Origin: Candidatus Roizmanbacteria bacterium RIFCSPHIGHO2_02_FULL_37_13b
GTDB lineage: Bacteria; Patescibacteriota; Microgenomatia; UBA1406; HO2-37-13b
Direction: 5' to 3'
Length of the DNA: 52,682 nucleotides
Assembly (NCBI GenBank): GCA_001789395.1
Contig: MFZK01000017.1
Location: 1-52,682 of the forward strand
A program made the position numbers and the translations under genes. Shown here piece by piece: positions 7,421 to 11,462 of the stretch; positions within the stretch are counted from its first letter, which is position 1; each line of letters starts with the position of its first letter. The notes under the pieces were generated by a model. The model was given only the letters and a program-made list of their open reading frames with translations, ran no database searches and was not told the DNA's origin.

Positions 7421-9772
7421 ATGAATTCTATAGCTTTACGTATAATATTATCGGTTTTGATATGTTTTAATATAGTATTTTATCCTCTTTCAATATATTC
7501 ACAGGAAGTCGAACCAACACCAACTATAGATGAATCACCTACGCCTACGACGGTTGTTGAAAGTACGCCAACACCATTTTCAGAATTCGTTGACCTATCA
7601 CCTACTCCGGTTGATGAGATAACGCCAATAGTTGATATCACTCCGACCCCGACAATACCACTTGACGCTGATCTACAAATCGTCAATAGTGGCGATGATA
7701 CAAGCGTAAGTGCGACAGACAGCAGCAGTCTAACTGTAAATATAGAAAGCACCAATAGCGCTCAAGTAGATAATTCTGTGAATCATGACGTAAATACGGG
7801 TGATAACATTTCCGACAATCCTGTCTCAAACTCAGATGTCAAAACAGGCGAGGCTAAATCAGATGTTGTTATAGTTAATGAAGTCAATCAAGCTATAGTC
7901 GGAGGTGAAATCACTCCTGTTTTAGTCAATATCACAGAGGATCATCAAGGAGAGATAGATTTATCGATGATTCAACCATGTCTTGATAAATTATTCGGAT
8001 CAGAAGGTCAACAATCATATATCGTCAATACAGGTGACAATGTTGACATTCAAAATGATAAAAAGGAAACTACGGATACAACTATCACTGTAAATAACGA
8101 CGCGACAATTAATAATGATGTTAAGGTAAAGATCAACACCGGATCAAACGATGTCAACGGATTAAATGCTTCCCTTACTACAGGCGATGCTCAATCAAAT
8201 GTATTTATCTATAATGGAGCAAATACAACGCTTGTAGGTGATTGTAACATTTTTACAATAATCAATCTTTTTAAAGATCAAAATGGAAACATCATTCTTC
8301 CCTATGAACTTGGTATGACCGAGCTTGATTCCGGGTTGCCGGCTATATACTACAAATTAGATGTCACAAATTCCGGTGATAATCTTGATATAAATCAACA
8401 ATCATCAACTAATGATTCAACAACAATTGATACTCAAAACAATGCTGATGTCACAAGCAATGTCAATTCTGACGTCAATACCGGCGGTAATCAGATTTCA
8501 GGTATCTGGAATGGACTCATTTCGACGGGAAATGCCACTTCAACAGTCAAAATGGTTGATGCCATCAACACGACAATTGTCGGTGACCGATGGATGATGC
8601 TAAAAATTAATATTTTGGGTAATTGGTCGGGCAATATCATCGGCTTTGATGGCCCATATATTCGAGGTGAGAACTACATTATTCTTTTTTTCAGAATTCC
8701 TGCGAGTGATGGATCGGGCAACGCGCAATCAACTAATATCGTAAACAGTGGCGATAATTTATCGCTTGATCAAATAAATGAATATTCAAACACTCTTAAA
8801 GTCAATACAAATAATACCGCATCCGTGACAAACAATGTCGACGTCACCGCAAATAGCGGAAATAACCAAGTGTCAGGCATAAATACTTCGCTTAAAACAG
8901 GAGATGCCACCTCAAATATCAGCATTTTCAATTTCTTGAATACGACCATAATCGGCAATAATTGGTACTTTGCCATAATAAATATCTTTGATAACTTTGT
9001 TGGCGATATAATCTTTCCTCGTCCTGACCTTGCTATAGCAAAATTTGTTGATAAAACTACTGCCTTGAAAAATGATCAACTGACATATACGATCAAATAT
9101 GCTAATATAGGGCGATACTATGCCAATAAAACGGTTTTGACTGATGTATTACCTCAAGATGTAGAATTCGTCACATCTTTACCTGCTCCAACCATTAATG
9201 GAAATAACTTATCTTTTTCTTTAGGACGACTAAAACCAGGATCTGTCGGTGAAATTTCGATTCAGGTAAAAGTAAAAGATATTGATGCATCATTTGATTT
9301 GATAAACAATGCCATAATCAAGACTGATACACCGGAATCAGATAAATCAAATAATAGTTCATCTGCCGTGACTAAGATAAGTTTCGCACCACCGCAAATA
9401 CAAACAAATGACAATGCCAATAATAATAATTCAGGTAATTCTTCAAACCAAAATAATCAATCGACGTCTACACCATCTAGTCAATCTAGTACGACTAATA
9501 TCATTCCGACACCAACTGAGATGCCGGTAATTGATACAAAAATCCCGGCTCCTTTATCTTACATCCGTTATTTATCAAAAACTAAGGAAAATCCGGCAGA
9601 AATCAATCAAGGATCAATTTTGGCTATTTCGGATAAAAACAATTGCGGGTTTATGTGTATGTTACGCAGTCTATTTTATAAGTACTGGATAATACCTGTG
9701 TTGTCATTGCTTTTGGTACCTTTAATTAGAAAAAGATACAAACTTAAAAAAATTACCTCCCGAAAAACCTGA
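7421..9772 (+). CDS. Secreted repeat protein C: PT-rich linker, four repeats, DUF11-like Ig domain, C-terminal TM anchor
   Basis: Signal peptide, SPTPT linker, IVN[ST]GD / N.A / NTG.N / TG[DE]A repeats, DLAIAKFVDK...LTYTIKYANIG...LTDVLP (DUF11 pattern), terminal TM plus RKRYKLKK. Confidence 0.8.
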   Translation: MNSIALRIILSVLICFNIVFYPLSIYSQEVEPTPTIDESPTPTTVVESTPTPFSEFVDLSPTPVDEITPIVDITPTPTIPLDADLQIVNSGDDTSVSATDSSSLTVNIESTNSAQVDNSVNHDVNTGDNISDNPVSNSDVKTGEAKSDVVIVNEVNQAIVGGEITPVLVNITEDHQGEIDLSMIQPCLDKLFGSEGQQSYIVNTGDNVDIQNDKKETTDTTITVNNDATINNDVKVKINTGSNDVNGLNASLTTGDAQSNVFIYNGANTTLVGDCNIFTIINLFKDQNGNIILPYELGMTELDSGLPAIYYKLDVTNSGDNLDINQQSSTNDSTTIDTQNNADVTSNVNSDVNTGGNQISGIWNGLISTGNATSTVKMVDAINTTIVGDRWMMLKINILGNWSGNIIGFDGPYIRGENYIILFFRIPASDGSGNAQSTNIVNSGDNLSLDQINEYSNTLKVNTNNTASVTNNVDVTANSGNNQVSGINTSLKTGDATSNISIFNFLNTTIIGNNWYFAIINIFDNFVGDIIFPRPDLAIAKFVDKTTALKNDQLTYTIKYANIGRYYANKTVLTDVLPQDVEFVTSLPAPTINGNNLSFSLGRLKPGSVGEISIQVKVKDIDASFDLINNAIIKTDTPESDKSNNSSSAVTKISFAPPQIQTNDNANNNNSGNSSNQNNQSTSTPSSQSSTTNIIPTPTEMPVIDTKIPAPLSYIRYLSKTKENPAEINQGSILAISDKNNCGFMCMLRSLFYKYWIIPVLSLLLVPLIRKRYKLKKITSRKT

Positions 9773-10214
9773 ACTTTAACCGATTGAATATACTTTGAAT
9801 TTGATTGTGAATATAATCACTTAAACTCGTAGTCTTAATTTTGTCTATATATGAGATAGTATCTGTGTTTAAAACGATATTATTTTTTTTTGATTCGTCG
9901 GTTGCTTGGGTTTGCGTTGTATAATTTCCGTTCTTATATTCAACAGAGTATAACCCGGGCTTATCACTTTCAACAATTTTTTTTTGACCATTAACATCGA
10001 CTTCTATTCTTGTTTTGGTTGTACCTGATTCTTTTTTTTCAACTTTTCCATTATTTTCGATAGTTACACTCTGACTACTTTGAGAATTTACATTAGTTTG
10101 AACTTGTACCTGTCCACTGCCTTGCTGAGTTACTTTTGTCTCAATTTTATTTGTCGCAGTTTCTGAAACCAGAAACAGAGGTAATAAAAAAATTGGTGAT
10201 AGCTGCTTTTTCAT
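9753..10214 (-). CDS. Small exported Gln/Asn/Thr-rich hypothetical protein (153 aa)
   Basis: True start MKKQLSPIFLLPLFLV at 10214; the longer ORF call overlaps the tRNA. Confidence 0.65.
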   Translation of the reverse strand: MKKQLSPIFLLPLFLVSETATNKIETKVTQQGSGQVQVQTNVNSQSSQSVTIENNGKVEKKESGTTKTRIEVDVNGQKKIVESDKPGLYSVEYKNGNYTTQTQATDESKKNNIVLNTDTISYIDKIKTTSLSDYIHNQIQSIFNRLKFRFFGR

Positions 10215-10216
10215 AG

Positions 10217-10288
10217 TGGCCGCTGGAGGATTTGAACCTCCGACATCTGCAATGTGAATGCAGCGCTCTACCACTGAGCTAAACGGCC
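10217..10288 (-). tRNA. tRNA-Val(CAC), CCA not encoded
   Basis: GGCCGTT acceptor pairs with AGCGGCC-A; D-arm GCTC/GAGC; anticodon stem CTGCA-TTCACAT-TGCAG; T-arm GGAGG-TTCAAAT-CCTCC. Confidence 0.95.
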
Positions 10289-10292
10289 ATAC

Positions 10293-10342
10293 AGCACCCT
10301 TCCTGCCTGCAGGTGCAGGTCTTCTATTGAGCTACGGGTGCT
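10293..10342 (-). pseudogene. tRNA-like remnant (GCACCCGTAGCTCAATAG...) with internal CCTGC/GCAGG hairpin
   Basis: AGCACCC pairs with GGGTGCT; TAGCTCA D-arm start; no anticodon arm or T-arm. Confidence 0.5.
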
Positions 10343-10598
10343 CCGCTTTTAAAAAATAATTTTTTAATATTCTCCGCAAATAATTTCTTCCCCATTGAGT
10401 TTTAAAGAATTTTTCTCTTGATGTTGCATCTTGTTGATTTAAATACGCCTCATAATAAATGACTTTCCAAGGTATTTTATATTTTGTACTATCAACTTCT
10501 CTATGATTATGTTCTTGGAGTCTTCTTTTAAGATTGTCTGTATACCCTTTATAAAGACTCTTATCTTTTAAACTCTCTAAAACATAGGTATAATACAT
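10332..10598 (-). CDS. Small stand-alone GIY-YIG nuclease (YhbQ/UPF0213-like, 88 aa)
   Basis: MYYTYVL...LYKGYTDNLKRRLQEHN...YYEAY...ATSREKFFKT. Confidence 0.88.
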   Translation of the reverse strand: MYYTYVLESLKDKSLYKGYTDNLKRRLQEHNHREVDSTKYKIPWKVIYYEAYLNQQDATSREKFFKTQWGRNYLRRILKNYFLKAEHP

Positions 10599-10607
10599 AT
10601 TTAACAA

Positions 10608-10680
10608 CGCTCTTCACCCGCGCAAATTTCATATATACTGTATTGAAATTTGAACGGGTAAACCACTGAGCTACGGATCA
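10608..10680 (-). repeat. Copy 1 of a 66-bp direct repeat (10608-10673): tRNA 5' fragment TGATCCGTAGCTCAGTGGT-[48-nt hairpin]-AGAGCG
   Basis: 10608-10673 is identical to 10728-10793 (period 120 bp). Confidence 0.85.
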
Positions 10681-10727
10681 ATAACATTAATTATAACGAA
10701 CTAAACATCTAGTTAAACTCTACTTGC

Positions 10728-10800
10728 CGCTCTTCACCCGCGCAAATTTCATATATACTGTATTGAAATTTGAACGGGTAAACCACTGAGCTAAACGGCC
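10728..10800 (-). repeat. Copy 2: tRNA-Val 5' fragment GGCCGTTTAGCTCAGTGGT-[48-nt hairpin]-AGAGCG
   Basis: 10782-10800 is identical to tRNA-Val 10270-10288; the insert 10734-10781 is palindromic. Confidence 0.85.
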
Positions 10801-10853
10801 TACCCTCCAAATTCTATTGTTATTTTACCAGAATTTAGCTAGAATCATAAGTT

Positions 10854-11462
10854 ATGGATCTTTTAAAAAAGGTTATCGAGTTTGTCATGGATATTCTGGA
10901 AACTGTGGTCTTTGTCGGCTCACTTTTCATCGTCAGCTACCTCTTTTTAATTGCTCCAAACCAGGTCAAAGGTGCTTCGATGGAACCAACTTTTGATTCG
11001 GGTGATTATATATTAACAAGCAAAATTTCTTATAAATTTTCTCATCCAAAAAAAGGAGATATTATCGTATTTGCATCCTTGAGAAATAAGGACATTGATT
11101 ATATAAAAAGAATTATTGGCATCCCGGGAGATAGAATAGTTATTAAAGATAATGAAGTTTACTTAAATGGCAATCTGATCAAAGAAGACTACATATCAGC
11201 AAAAACAACTATATTTGAAAGCGGTTTTATGAAGAATAACGTCGAGGTTACCGTACCGGAAGATTATTTATATGTCATGGGCGACAATCGACCTCGTTCC
11301 TCAGACTCAAGAGATTTTGGATTTATTCCAGCGACCAATGTCATTGGAAAAGTCATTTATCGCTATTTTCCTTTTAATAAATTGGGCGGAGTCAAAAACC
11401 CATTTCAAAGTATAATATTGCAGTATTTATTATCTGACAAACAAATCATTAATCTTTTTTAA
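10854..11462 (+). CDS. lepB: Signal peptidase I
   Basis: GASMEPT, YIKRIIGIPGD, MGDNRPRSSDSRDFG. Confidence 0.95.
   Translation: MDLLKKVIEFVMDILETVVFVGSLFIVSYLFLIAPNQVKGASMEPTFDSGDYILTSKISYKFSHPKKGDIIVFASLRNKDIDYIKRIIGIPGDRIVIKDNEVYLNGNLIKEDYISAKTTIFESGFMKNNVEVTVPEDYLYVMGDNRPRSSDSRDFGFIPATNVIGKVIYRYFPFNKLGGVKNPFQSIILQYLLSDKQIINLF

What the first reader, a model, noticed from the sequence alone, without database searches (positions are those of the whole stretch)
10270..10800. GIY-YIG mini-element built from tRNA 5' fragments and bounded by a duplicated tRNA-Val 5' end
Seen, in minus-strand order: [tRNA-Val 5' half + hairpin], spacer with TATAAT, [different tRNA 5' half + same hairpin], 88-aa GIY-YIG gene, [third tRNA-like remnant + hairpin], intact tRNA-Val(CAC). 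The first 19 nt of tRNA-Val are duplicated exactly 512 bp apart (10270-10288 and 10782-10800). No integrase or transposase lies inside. Established: integrative elements usually duplicate tRNA 3' ends using integrases, and GIY-YIG domains act as homing or structure-specific nucleases. Inference: a tiny selfish element that targets the conserved TAGCTCAGTGGTAGAGC D-arm sequence, moves between tRNA genes by cut-and-recombine, picks up their 5' ends and promoters, and regenerates an intact tRNA.
Basis: partly seen in the sequence, partly recalled or inferred. Interest (0 to 1): 0.8.

Follow-up and report, generated by a model that had tools for sequence, protein, structure and literature searches.

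The report
Tiny nuclease gene lodged in tRNA-Val
A 512-base insert carrying an 88-residue GIY-YIG nuclease gene and a characteristic palindrome has split the tRNA-Val gene of a small-genome (Patescibacteria) bacterium while leaving an intact tRNA copy, and the same design recurs at dozens of different tRNA genes across the phylum, pointing to an undescribed kind of minimal selfish element.

Summary
An exact 19-nt copy of the tRNA-Val(CAC) 5' end lies 512 bp upstream of the intact gene. Between them are two identical 66-nt units (D-arm sequence with a palindrome in the D-loop), an 88-aa GIY-YIG ORF and a third tRNA-like remnant. Contig graphs of four runs agree with the assembly.

In 28 of 29 relatives tRNA-Val(CAC) sits 52-267 nt from lepB, against 565 nt here. 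The 5' fragment marks the old tRNA position, so this is an insertion.

The design is general. In 69 homologue loci from 33 related genomes, 47 ORFs lie beside a same-strand tRNA. Of 34 upstream-type loci, 25 repeat the tRNA 5' end from position +1, followed by hairpins. ORF clades follow tRNA identity: 9 of the 10 closest homologues sit upstream of tRNA-Val.

The palindrome (hpA) occurs only in the 3 of 41 relatives with the closest ORFs. It also sits in riboswitch loops. The protein folds like SLX1/UPF0213, not I-TevI.

Best reading: a selfish, tRNA-resident nuclease element that spreads by break-induced recombination. Cleavage, target and mechanism are inferred. Eight literature searches found no description of it.

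The parts
10854..11462 (+). lepB (signal peptidase I), the conserved divergent neighbour that fixes the ancestral position of tRNA-Val
   Evidence: Pfam Peptidase_S26 at E 4.1e-48. tRNA-Val(CAC) lies next to it in 28 of 29 relatives' loci.
10801..10853 (-). 53-nt lepB/tRNA spacer, the probable native tRNA promoter region
   Evidence: Its length matches the 52-101 nt gaps in 21 of 28 relatives, which carry a TATAAT-like box there. A promoter function here is inferred.
10782..10800 (-). Fragment 1: exact copy of tRNA-Val(CAC) positions 1-19, at the ancestral tRNA position
10733..10781 (-). Palindrome hpA copy 1, inserted in the D-loop of fragment 1 (core 10736-10779)
   Evidence: RNA fold of fragment plus hairpin: -29.9 kcal/mol, z -5.1.
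10728..10733 (-). AGAGCG, tRNA positions 20-25, resuming after the palindrome
10674..10727 (-). 54-nt spacer with TATAAT at 10695-10690. Its 3' part resembles the promoter/leader in front of the tRNA-Asn-linked ORF on contig C10.
   Evidence: by eye. The consensus promoter scan did not call it.
10662..10680 (-). Fragment 2: 5' end of a different tRNA (acceptor strand TGATCCG), identical to fragment 1 from position 8 on
10613..10661 (-). Palindrome hpA copy 2 (core 10616-10659), identical to copy 1
10599..10613 (-). AGAGCG plus a 9-nt leader up to the start codon. In relatives this stretch is tRNA positions 20 to about 33.
10332..10598 (-). 88-aa GIY-YIG nuclease gene of the SLX1/UPF0213 type. 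Its stop codon is the TAG of remnant 3.
10293..10341 (-). Remnant 3: tRNA-Arg-like 5' end (GCACCCG TAGCTCAAT...), palindrome hpB-like at 10302-10319, then the matching 3' acceptor strand (GGGTGC)
   Evidence: fold z -2.0, weak. The likeness to tRNA-Arg was judged by eye against the tRNA list.
10216..10288 (-). Intact tRNA-Val(CAC)

Best explanation
The stretch 10289-10781 is a composite copy of a selfish mini-element that lives inside tRNA genes. It has seen at least two rounds of insertion.

Its active part is an 88-residue GIY-YIG nuclease of the SLX1/UPF0213 branch. Its cis part is a lineage-specific imperfect palindrome (hpA).

The element sits in the tRNA-Val gene on the tRNA's own strand. 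The old 5' part of the tRNA, now carrying the palindrome in its D-loop, is left upstream at the native promoter. The nuclease gene starts where the anticodon region would be. A complete tRNA-Val follows the ORF, so the host loses nothing and the ORF can be transcribed with the tRNA.

The most likely mode of spread is nuclease-induced breakage of a tRNA gene, or of the palindrome extruded as a cruciform. Recombinational repair from an occupied copy would follow. That is homing or 'ends-in' integration through a block of tRNA homology that starts at tRNA position +1. Because the intact tRNA is restored, re-insertion can occur, giving tandem and nested copies such as this one. ORF loss then leaves hairpin-bearing tRNA fragments.

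Shown here: the anatomy, the empty site in relatives, many copies with patchy distribution, linkage of ORF lineage to tRNA identity, linkage of ORF lineage to palindrome family, and conserved catalytic-motif residues.

Inferred: nuclease activity, what it cuts, the recombination route, and which tRNA copy is the incoming one.
For: 1. Insertion with an empty site.
- tRNA-Val(CAC) lies 52-267 nt from lepB in 28 of 29 relatives, and within 101 nt in 21 of them. Here the gap is 565 nt, with fragment 1 only 53 nt from lepB.

2. Recurrence.
- The genome has 7 short PF01541 frames.
- One on C10 has the same design at tRNA-Asn: an exact 21-nt 5' repeat, a hairpin, then GAGCG.
- 33 of 41 related genomes have homologues, 0-13 each.
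- Of 69 loci taken in E-value order, 32 have a same-strand tRNA at most 70 nt downstream and 15 have one at most 200 nt upstream.
- Over all three samples, 88 of 149 loci have a same-strand tRNA or tmRNA at these distances, against 1 of 149 on the opposite strand. The chance rate is about 1.6% per ORF. L148 and L040 are the same place, so 148 loci are distinct.
- Of 16 of the 22 unlinked loci scanned with Rfam, 4 lie next to tmRNA, 1 lies inside 16S rRNA and 1 lies beside a group I intron.

3. Common anatomy.
- 25 of 34 upstream-type loci repeat the tRNA 5' end. The break is in the D-arm in 22, in the anticodon loop in 2 and in the T-arm in 1. GC-rich hairpins always follow.
- The repeat starts at +1 in 21 of 22 loci, and the ORF's stop codon lies inside the tRNA in 14 of 22.
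- 13 of 16 downstream-type loci have strongly folded spacers.

4. Lineage specificity.
- ORF clades follow the tRNA amino acid across host families (quick tree).
- 9 of the 10 closest homologues (61-73% identity) sit upstream of tRNA-Val, and all 10 carry hpA in the D-loop of the fragment.

5. Palindrome linkage.
- hpA is found in 3 of 41 relatives, exactly those with the closest ORFs. It is found in 0 of 150 other genomes of the phylum. The reversed-pattern control gives 0.

6. The protein.
- Y5, Y16, G18, R26, H30, E62 and K66 are invariant in 29 sequences.
- The AF2 model has pLDDT 94.8.
- The nearest solved folds are SLX1, At-HIGLE and UPF0213 BH0048: probability 1.00, TM 0.53-0.67, 22-30% identity.

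7. Turnover.
- The acceptor stem of the fragment differs from that of the intact tRNA in 7 of 10 Val-lineage loci. In L141 the rest of the resident tRNA lies beyond the intact one.
- There are tandem ORFs in L050 and L052.
Against: - No cleavage, excision or transfer has been observed.
- No strain-level presence/absence was seen. One metagenome scan for the flank junction found nothing. Two short joints in run X7 are too weak to count.
- The protein has no DNA-binding domain, so a long specific target is hard to explain.
- The restored tRNA should remain a target, which raises the question of self-immunity.
- ORF identity and intact-tRNA identity do not co-vary over 11 loci (Spearman -0.26, p 0.06). 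The idea that the ORF carries its tRNA along is therefore not supported over long times.
- 61 of 149 loci have no tRNA or tmRNA at these distances. At least one of them (L041) sits between ordinary genes without any hairpin.
- Related genomes are not independent samples. The ORF-tRNA link could partly reflect old vertical inheritance with losses.
Confidence: 0.68

Rival explanations
1. The mobile unit is the palindrome. The small GIY-YIG protein is its mobilising, structure-specific nuclease, a counterpart of RAYT/REP. It inserts palindromes at the tips of stem-loop-forming DNA. The tRNA fragments and duplications are by-products of repair at tRNA genes, where the nuclease gene itself is parked.
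For: - hpA has 6 copies in this genome. Three of them lie in loops of FMN and cobalamin riboswitches, far from any GIY-YIG gene.
- In G009 and G011 copies lie in a riboswitch, in the 16S leader, and in frame in a pilin-like gene.
- hpA co-occurs with the Val-lineage ORF: 3 of 3 genomes with it against 0 of 38 without.
- All 25 copies have the same fold, with 21 different centres.
- hpB has up to 21 copies per genome and none in the 8 relatives that lack a GIY-YIG hit.
- The fold is nearest to the branched-DNA nuclease SLX1.
Against: - Most hpB copies are not near a GIY-YIG gene, and no ORF clade was shown to match hpB.
- Four genomes with 7-13 ORFs have no hpB.
- The three hpA genomes are in one family, so kinship could explain the co-occurrence.
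- This reading does not by itself explain why the tRNA repeat starts exactly at +1.
- It overlaps with the best explanation rather than excluding it.
Confidence: 0.2
2. The gene is not mobile. It is a host nuclease (repair or recombination, as proposed for UPF0213/YhbQ) that happens to be co-transcribed with tRNA genes. The tRNA fragments come from unrelated local duplications and palindrome insertions.
For: - The closest solved relatives are uncharacterised UPF0213 proteins of Firmicutes.
- The gene is always on the tRNA strand.
- Catalytic-motif residues are conserved.
- Some copies lie between ordinary genes.
Against: - Copy number ranges from 0 to 13 per roughly 1-Mb genome, and 8 of 41 relatives have none.
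- The site is empty in 28 of 28 relatives' lepB loci that hold the tRNA.
- There are tandem copies and degraded copies with stop codons.
- ORFs occur inside 16S rRNA and beside a group I intron.
- The fragment geometry is the same at 26 different anticodon types.
Confidence: 0.07
3. The tRNA 5' fragment plus hairpin is transcribed as a guide-like RNA: a 5' stretch identical to the target, then a scaffold. It would direct the domain-less nuclease to the matching tRNA gene.
For: - The fragment starts at tRNA +1, matches the downstream tRNA exactly in 14 of 25 loci, and is always followed by a stable hairpin.
- The protein has no DNA-binding domain.
Against: - Fragment length ranges from 12 to 51 nt, and the hairpins differ completely between lineages.
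- Downstream-type loci have no fragment.
- The hpA arms are conserved as sequence on both arms, and G.T and A.C mismatches occur on either strand. That fits a DNA site better than an RNA scaffold.
- In 7 of 10 Val-lineage loci the fragment does not match the acceptor stem of the adjacent tRNA.
Confidence: 0.03
4. Assembly artefact: repeats collapsed or mis-joined in a metagenome bin.
For: The genome is a 23-contig draft, and the region holds exact repeats of 66 and 19 nt.
Against: - Contig graphs of 4 runs give the same path, and the 66-nt node has double depth.
- The same design is seen in independent assemblies of many genomes.
Confidence: 0.02

Closest known systems
SegB of phage T4, a free-standing GIY-YIG homing endonuclease in a tRNA gene cluster
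   Same: A GIY-YIG gene lying among tRNA genes and absent from otherwise homologous loci. SegB recognises a conserved tRNA-gene motif (the T-psi-C stem-loop), cuts at the 3' ends of tRNA genes and spreads with the neighbouring tRNA genes (PMC2330249: abstract and passages read; PMC13096335: listing and start of abstract only).
   Different: SegB has extra DNA-binding parts (its ORF was cloned on a 687-bp fragment) and belongs to the I-TevI-like branch. The protein here is 88 aa, catalytic domain only, and folds like SLX1/UPF0213. I-TevI matches only at E about 1 and TM 0.45. SegB lies between tRNA genes. This element lies inside one and duplicates its 5' part. No palindrome is described for SegB in the passages read.
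SLX1 / At-HIGLE / UPF0213 (YhbQ-type) GIY-YIG nucleases
   Same: These are the best sequence and fold matches. By the titles of the matched entries, SLX1 cuts branched DNA.
   Different: There is no RING/zinc-finger part and no SLX4 partner. The UPF0213 proteins have no published role that I could find, and no link to tRNA genes or mobility.
Integrase-borne islands and prophages in tRNA genes
   Same: Insertion into a tRNA gene with a partial tRNA copy on one side and an intact tRNA on the other (PMC9897764, passages read).
   Different: Those elements are kilobases long, carry an integrase and, from recall, usually duplicate the 3' part. This one is 0.3-0.5 kb, has no integrase and duplicates the 5' part from +1.
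REP/REPIN palindromes and their RAYT transposases
   Same: Short GC-rich imperfect palindromes in many copies, tied to one lineage-specific nuclease gene (PMC3116915 and PMC3337134: listings and abstract starts only).
   Different: RAYTs are HUH tyrosine transposases and REPs are extragenic. Here the enzyme is GIY-YIG, and the palindromes sit in loops of structured-RNA genes.
Group I intron-encoded GIY-YIG endonucleases in tRNA anticodon loops; 'fractured genes' with free-standing homing endonuclease genes
   Same: In this lineage the ORF junction is at the anticodon region. One family member lies beside a group I intron. A gene split by a free-standing endonuclease gene is the idea of PMC2677866 (listing and abstract start only).
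   Different: Rfam finds no intron RNA here. The tRNA is not spliced back together but supplied as a second full copy.
Rickettsia palindromic elements (recalled, not looked up)
   Same: Palindromic inserts tolerated inside functional genes, including in-frame inserts. One hpA copy is in frame in a pilin-like gene.
   Different: I recall no nuclease partner for them. This comparison rests on memory only.

Membership tests
GIY-YIG nuclease superfamily (Pfam PF01541) | Profile match above the curated cut-off | tested here: met
   E 1.1e-12, 48.5 bits against 22.6
GIY-YIG nuclease superfamily (Pfam PF01541) | Three-stranded sheet with flanking helices; motif residues (Tyr, Tyr-x-Gly, Arg, His, Glu) kept | tested here: met
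   AF2 model at pLDDT 94.8 with strands 2-9, 15-20 and 44-52 plus helices. Y5, Y16, G18, R26, H30 and E62 are invariant in 29 sequences. Assigning these residues to catalysis rests on recall of the family.
GIY-YIG nuclease superfamily (Pfam PF01541) | Nuclease activity | not testable with these tools
   Needs purified protein.
SLX1/UPF0213 branch | Closest in sequence and fold to SLX1 and UPF0213 rather than to I-TevI or UvrC | tested here: met
   1ywl at E 1e-4 and 1zg2 at E 2e-3. Foldseek ranks SLX1, At-HIGLE and 1zg2 in places 1-11 at probability 1.00; I-TevI and UvrC score E of 1 or worse.
SLX1/UPF0213 branch | C-terminal RING/zinc finger and an SLX4-type partner (SLX1 proper) | tested here: not met
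   The protein is 88 aa, one domain. It is therefore not SLX1 itself.
Free-standing homing endonuclease gene | Gene present in some and absent from otherwise homologous loci | tested here: met
   Empty lepB/tRNA-Val site in 28 relatives. Copy number 0-13 per genome.
Free-standing homing endonuclease gene | The enzyme cuts the ORF-less allele at or near the insertion site | not testable with these tools
   Needs a cleavage assay.
Free-standing homing endonuclease gene | A DNA-binding module giving a long recognition site | tested here: not met
   Catalytic domain only.
Free-standing homing endonuclease gene | Co-conversion of flanking markers | tested here: inconclusive
   Fragment and intact tRNA are different alleles in 7 of 10 loci, but ORF and tRNA identity do not co-vary.
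Integrase-type tRNA-integrating element | Integrase or recombinase gene within the element | tested here: not met
   The GIY-YIG frame is the only ORF of 40 aa or more between the repeats.
REP/RAYT system | Multi-copy palindrome tied to one nuclease lineage | tested here: met
   hpA has 6, 4 and 1 copies in the 3 genomes with the closest ORFs, and none in 38 + 150 others.
REP/RAYT system | HUH (Y1) transposase | tested here: not met
   The enzyme is GIY-YIG.
Group I intron with endonuclease ORF | Group I ribozyme around the ORF | tested here: not met
   No Intron_gpI match in 9700-11300 at E of 10 or better.

The most novel reading that the evidence does not exclude
The 80-90-residue SLX1-like nuclease and its lineage-specific palindrome form a two-part, structure-seeking mobile system, a GIY-YIG counterpart of RAYT/REP. 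It would recognise DNA that can extrude stem-loops, namely tRNA arms and riboswitch hairpins, and plant palindromes at their tips. It would lodge its own gene inside tRNA genes while supplying a replacement tRNA. In doing so it would drive the fast turnover of tRNA alleles seen at syntenic loci across Patescibacteria.
Probability: 0.3. Interest if true: 0.9.

Novelty: new variant of a known kind. Interest (0 to 1): 0.8.

Why it matters
- It would give a biological role to a very common family of tiny 'GIY-YIG nuclease family' genes. Homologues were found in 108 of 151 sampled genomes of this phylum.
- It would add one of the smallest autonomous selfish elements known in bacteria, about 0.3 kb at tRNA-Asn on contig C10.
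- It would explain the many 5' tRNA fragments, and the hairpin-bearing pseudo-tRNAs, that confuse tRNA annotation in small-genome bacteria.
- It suggests a way in which tRNA genes are replaced or reshuffled. Acceptor stems at the syntenic lepB-linked tRNA-Val differ widely within one family.
- A catalytic-domain-only nuclease with a defined palindromic partner site would be an attractive subject for enzymology.

Tried and rejected
- **Wide locus search with alignments.** The single protein was used instead.
- **Earlier findings.** The search of earlier findings gave one format error and then 'not open'.
- **NCBIfam.** It names nothing for the window protein.
- **Expression.** No RNA holder was listed for the stretch, so nothing can be said about expression.
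- **Strain variants.** A metagenome scan for the 38-nt flank/fragment junction, meant to find variants with or without the insert, found nothing.
- **Joints in run X7.** Two joints (10273>11096 and 10281>10873; side 25-26, depth about 4) could be relatives with an empty site. They are too short to use.
- **ORF carries its tRNA.** I tested whether ORF and intact-tRNA identities co-vary over 11 loci. They do not.
- **RNA-level selection on hpA.** This was considered because of G.T pairs. It was dropped because A.C and G.T mismatches occur on either strand and both arms are conserved as sequence.
- **Simple target-site duplication.** It was rejected as unlikely. The repeat is 12-51 nt long yet nearly always starts at tRNA +1.
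- **Chance Rfam hits.** Weak matches in the region (GAIT, MIR7533, SNORD79, Plastid-ycf2 on the antisense of the tRNA) are below gathering scores and were taken as chance.
- **Promoter scan.** The sigma-70 scan found no more sites than shuffles did, and did not call the TATAAT in the spacer.
- **hpB and the Asn lineage.** hpB was tested as a partner of the Asn-lineage ORF. It turned out to be a dispersed repeat in 13 of 41 genomes, so no clean link could be drawn.
- **Literature.** Eight searches returned no paper describing small GIY-YIG genes inside bacterial tRNA genes or tied to palindromes. Subscription journals are not covered. Supplements are closed, including the tRNA-fragment tables S2 and S3 of PMC9897764, which might list such fragments.
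Full report
**1. What is in the window**

All features below are on the minus strand.

- ARAGORN finds a single tRNA in the 52.7-kb window, tRNA-Val(CAC) at 10216-10288. Rfam scores it at 73.1 bits.
- Its first 19 nt recur exactly at 10782-10800, 512 bp away.
- A 66-nt stretch occurs twice without a mismatch, at 10608-10673 and 10728-10793.
- Read in the tRNA's direction, each 66-nt unit is tRNA positions 8-19, a 47-nt imperfect palindrome, then AGAGCG, which is positions 20-25. In other words, a D-arm with a hairpin lodged in its D-loop.
- The upstream unit carries the true tRNA-Val acceptor strand. The second carries a different one (TGATCCG) and follows a 54-nt spacer with a TATAAT.
- Nine bases after the second unit starts an 88-codon ORF (10598-10332) that matches Pfam GIY-YIG at E 1.1e-12.
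- The ORF's stop codon is the TAG of a third tRNA-like piece. That piece has an Arg-like 5' end, a second kind of palindrome (10302-10319) and the matching 3' acceptor strand. It lies just before the intact tRNA.
- No other ORF of 40 codons or more lies between the repeats. No group I intron or other Rfam family is detected.
- Contigs of four public runs tile the region in the same order, and the 66-nt node has about twice the depth of its neighbours. Two of those runs may be the source of the assembly, and they are contigs, not raw reads.

**2. It is an insertion**

- lepB (10854-11462) and tRNA-Val(CAC) are divergent neighbours in 28 of 29 related genomes' lepB loci. The 29th locus is cut by a contig end.
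- The gap between them is 52-101 nt in 21 relatives and at most 267 nt in all 28. Here it is 565 nt.
- The 19-nt fragment starts 53 nt from the lepB start codon, where the tRNA starts in relatives. The tRNA gene was therefore split, and an intact copy now lies 512 bp further on.
- One relative (G009, locus L025) has no ORF there. It does have two different tRNA-Val 5' remnants upstream of an intact tRNA-Val with yet another acceptor stem. That is a trace of earlier events at the same site.

**3. The same design recurs**

In this genome (1.16 Mb, 23 contigs):
- There are seven short GIY-YIG frames.
- One on contig C10 is a simpler twin. It has tRNA-Asn positions 1-21 (exact), a 20-nt GC palindrome, GAGCG (positions 22-26), a TATAAT 7 nt before the ATG, and a 77-codon ORF whose stop is the TAG at tRNA positions 8-10. 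The intact tRNA-Asn follows. The whole repeat unit is 295 bp.

In related genomes:
- With the window protein as query, 33 of 41 related genomes have homologues, 0 to 13 each.
- I took the best locus per genome (29) and then the next 40 rows in E-value order.
- Of these 69 loci, 32 have a tRNA on the same strand at most 70 nt downstream (type A) and 15 have one at most 200 nt upstream (type B). The remaining 22 have neither.
- Of 16 of those 22 scanned with Rfam, four lie 79-159 nt downstream of tmRNA, one lies inside a 16S rRNA gene and one lies beside a group I intron.

Further afield:
- In a phylum-wide sample, 108 of 151 genomes have such genes. Of 29 best loci there, 10 are type A and 8 are type B, two of the latter at tmRNA.
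- Of 51 loci found in GTDB contigs with the window protein, 14 are type A and 9 are type B.
- Overall, 88 of 149 loci have a same-strand tRNA or tmRNA at these distances, against 1 of 149 on the opposite strand. One locus, L148 = L040, is counted twice.
- With about 45 tRNAs per Mb, the chance expectation is about 1.6% per ORF. Related genomes are not independent, so the binomial figure overstates the significance. The effect itself is not in doubt.
- By their record titles the hosts are Patescibacteria: Gottesman-, Levy-, Microgenomates, Parcu- and Saccharibacteria and others. A few homologues are in Bacteroidota, Opitutaceae (type B at tRNA-Leu) and Planctomycetales.

**4. Common anatomy**

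Type A loci:
- Of 34 type A loci (32 plus the two in this genome), an automatic search finds the tRNA's 5' end repeated upstream of the ORF in 25.
- Identity stops in the D-arm (12-28 nt) in 22, in the anticodon loop (35-36 nt) in 2 and in the T-arm (51 nt) in 1.
- One or two GC-rich hairpins always follow, and then a few bases that resume the tRNA sequence and close the interrupted stem.
- Nine loci gave no fragment by this criterion. At least one of them (L056) has a 55-nt fragment with a different acceptor stem, seen by eye.
- In 21 of 22 loci where it could be scored, the repeat begins at tRNA +1, with at most 5 shared bases upstream. The exception, L044, is a tandem.
- In 14 of 22 the ORF runs into the tRNA and uses a stop codon inside it. 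In 7 of these it is the TAG at positions 8-10.

Type B loci:
- The ORF follows an intact tRNA. The spacer is strongly folded in 13 of 16 (z of -2.9 or lower).
- Some carry a copy of the tRNA 3' end beyond the ORF (L062, L052).

Tandem ORFs occur in L050 and L052.

**5. Lineages are tied to tRNA identity**

- A quick maximum-likelihood tree of 76 ORFs groups them by the amino acid of the neighbouring tRNA across three host families. The groups are five Lys, three Ser, and pairs for Asp, Gly, Asn, Val, Pro and Gln, several of them spanning isoacceptors.
- The A/B labels are clustered: 0 of 500 shuffles were as low for A. The alignment has only 81 columns and the careful search did not finish.
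- The ten closest homologues of the window ORF (61-73% identity) are all type A. Nine sit at tRNA-Val(GAC or CAC) and one at tRNA-Ile.
- Their common plan is: promoter, tRNA-Val 1 to about 20, palindrome hpA, tRNA 21 to about 33, start codon at the place of the anticodon, ORF ending ...KNYW, intact tRNA.
- Four of them (L141, L143, L145, L147) also have lepB upstream, read by eye.
- The window is a member of this lineage with an extra hpA unit and an Arg-like remnant. I read that as nested or repeated insertion.

**6. The palindrome**

- hpA has conserved arms (TTyACCCG NN CAArTTT ... AAAyTTG NN CGGGTrAA), a 2x2 internal mismatch and a variable centre. All 25 copies fold alike, with 21 different centres.
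- Both arms are conserved as sequence. Mismatches of the G.T or A.C kind occur on either strand. That fits a symmetric DNA site or a cruciform better than an RNA hairpin.
- In this genome hpA has six copies:
  - two in the window;
  - one in an ORF-less tRNA-Met-like fragment just upstream of tRNA-Met;
  - two in two loops of an FMN riboswitch;
  - one forming the peripheral hairpin of a cobalamin riboswitch.
- In G009 it lies in the cobalamin riboswitch and the 16S leader. In G011 it lies in frame in a pilin-like gene.
- Among 41 related genomes, hpA occurs only in G000, G009 and G011. These are the three with the closest ORFs, at 100, 60 and 52% identity.
- It is absent from 150 other genomes of the phylum. 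It is present next to all ten closest ORFs.
- The three genomes belong to one family, so kinship is a caveat.
- The other palindrome, hpB, is a dispersed repeat with up to 21 copies in 13 of 41 genomes. It is absent from the 8 relatives without any GIY-YIG hit, and also absent from some genomes with many ORFs.

**7. The protein**

- Seven positions are invariant in 29 diverse members: Y5, Y16, G18, R26, H30, E62 and K66.
- The model is confident, with pLDDT 94.8.
- Sequence search of the PDB finds UPF0213 proteins EF2693 and BH0048.
- Foldseek puts SLX1, At-HIGLE and BH0048 first: probability 1.00, TM 0.53-0.67. I-TevI and UvrC are far behind.
- So it is a bare catalytic domain of the branch known for cutting branched DNA, not an I-TevI/Seg-type enzyme with a DNA-binding tail.

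**8. How it most likely works**

Shown:
- An insertion inside a tRNA gene that preserves a full tRNA.
- Many copies with patchy distribution.
- Lineage-specific tRNA hosts and lineage-specific palindromes.
- Conserved catalytic-motif residues.
- Tandem and decayed copies.

Inferred:
- The nuclease makes a break, either in an unoccupied tRNA gene or at the palindrome extruded as a four-way junction. Repair from an occupied copy then transfers the ORF.
- A formal description that fits the geometry is integration through a block of tRNA homology running from +1 to the break point. Ends-in or Campbell-type recombination of that kind (a textbook scheme, recalled) gives a truncated copy upstream and a complete copy downstream, with the ORF's end abutting +1.

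Which copy is incoming is unsettled:
- In 7 of 10 Val-lineage loci the fragment and the intact tRNA have different acceptor stems.
- In L141 the remainder of the resident tRNA lies beyond the intact one. That looks like insertion of ORF plus tRNA as a unit.
- Yet ORF and tRNA identities do not co-vary over 11 loci.
- In the window both copies are the family-typical allele.

How an 88-residue protein finds its target, and why the restored tRNA is not cut again, are open questions.

**9. Comparison with what is known**

- The nearest studied case is SegB of phage T4. It is a GIY-YIG homing endonuclease in a tRNA cluster that recognises the T-psi-C motif of tRNA genes and spreads with neighbouring tRNAs (PMC2330249, passages read).
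- The differences here are the SLX1-like bare domain, residence inside the tRNA gene with a 5' duplication, and the palindrome partner.
- Integrase-borne islands also leave tRNA fragments (PMC9897764, passages read). They are kilobases long and integrase-dependent.
- REP/RAYT is the nearest model for a palindrome family tied to one nuclease gene (listings only), but it uses an HUH enzyme.
- CPR rRNA introns with LAGLIDADG genes are known (one passage of PMC7143001).
- Eight full-text searches found nothing on small GIY-YIG genes in bacterial tRNA genes. The library lacks most subscription journals, and supplements were closed.

**10. Verdict**

- I file it as a new variant of a known kind: a free-standing homing-type nuclease gene.
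- There is a real chance, about 0.3, that nuclease plus palindrome form a new two-part mobile system.
- Interest: 0.8.

Noticed in passing
L003:1436-1804 (G000 contig C10:50027-50395): A second, simpler element of the same design at tRNA-Asn: an exact 21-nt 5' repeat, a 20-nt GC palindrome, GAGCG, a TATAAT 7 nt before the ATG (suggesting a leaderless mRNA), and an ORF that stops at the TAG inside the tRNA. The repeat unit is 295 bp.
   Followed up: yes
L190:1044-1176 and L191:939-981 (G000 C9:19343-19475; C19:28238-28280): The same palindrome as in the finding sits in two loops of an FMN riboswitch (43 bits, below the gathering score, probably because of the inserts). It also forms the peripheral hairpin of a cobalamin riboswitch (55 bits).
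   Followed up: partly
L192:563-639 (G000 C14:154262-154338): An ORF-less remnant directly upstream of tRNA-Met(CAT): a tRNA-Met-like 5' piece, then hpA, then a piece reaching a CAT anticodon.
   Followed up: partly
G000 contig C3:98771-99092 and C5:20918-20938: A tRNA-Gly(GCC)-like 5' piece with a hairpin lies upstream of tRNA-Gly(TCC). Downstream lie a Gly-like 3' piece and an exact 21-nt copy of the tRNA 3' end, preceded by GGGCC-GAA-GGTCC-type hairpins. The same kind of 3' copy lies 64 nt after tRNA-Gly(CCC). No ORF is present at either place.
   Followed up: no
L008:1501-1811 (G000 C21:71894-72204): A downstream-type member: the GIY-YIG ORF lies 67 nt after tRNA-Glu(TTC), with two nested GC hairpins between them (z -4.7).
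   Followed up: partly
L054 and L046 (relatives G015, G026): One family member lies inside a 16S rRNA gene and one lies about 220 nt from a group I intron. This links the family to classical rRNA and intron homing sites.
   Followed up: no
L010-L038 (lepB loci of relatives): The acceptor stem of the syntenic tRNA-Val(CAC) differs widely among genera of one family (GGCCGTT, GCGCGCA, GAGCCCA, GGTCGCA, GGGTCCG, GAGCTCG ...). G009's tRNA looks mosaic. This may be a sign of tRNA allele replacement.
   Followed up: partly
L197:494-533 (G011 C25:17293-17332): An hpA copy lies in frame within the N-terminal GFTLIEV motif of a prepilin-like gene, adding 12 codons.
   Followed up: no
relatives G019, G029, G025, G003, G012: The 20-nt palindrome CCTGCCTGCCGGCAGGCAGG is a dispersed repeat with 11-21 copies per roughly 1-Mb genome. 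It is conserved exactly across three families. Its insertion sites were not examined.
   Followed up: no
window:7421-9772: A 783-aa ORF rich in N/T/S/D repeats, with a signal-like N-terminus and a C-terminal hydrophobic stretch. It was not examined further.
   Followed up: no
whole genome G000: ARAGORN finds 43 tRNAs, but no tRNA-Cys and only one CAT tRNA. The genome is 93% complete, so these may lie in gaps or be masked by inserts.
   Followed up: no
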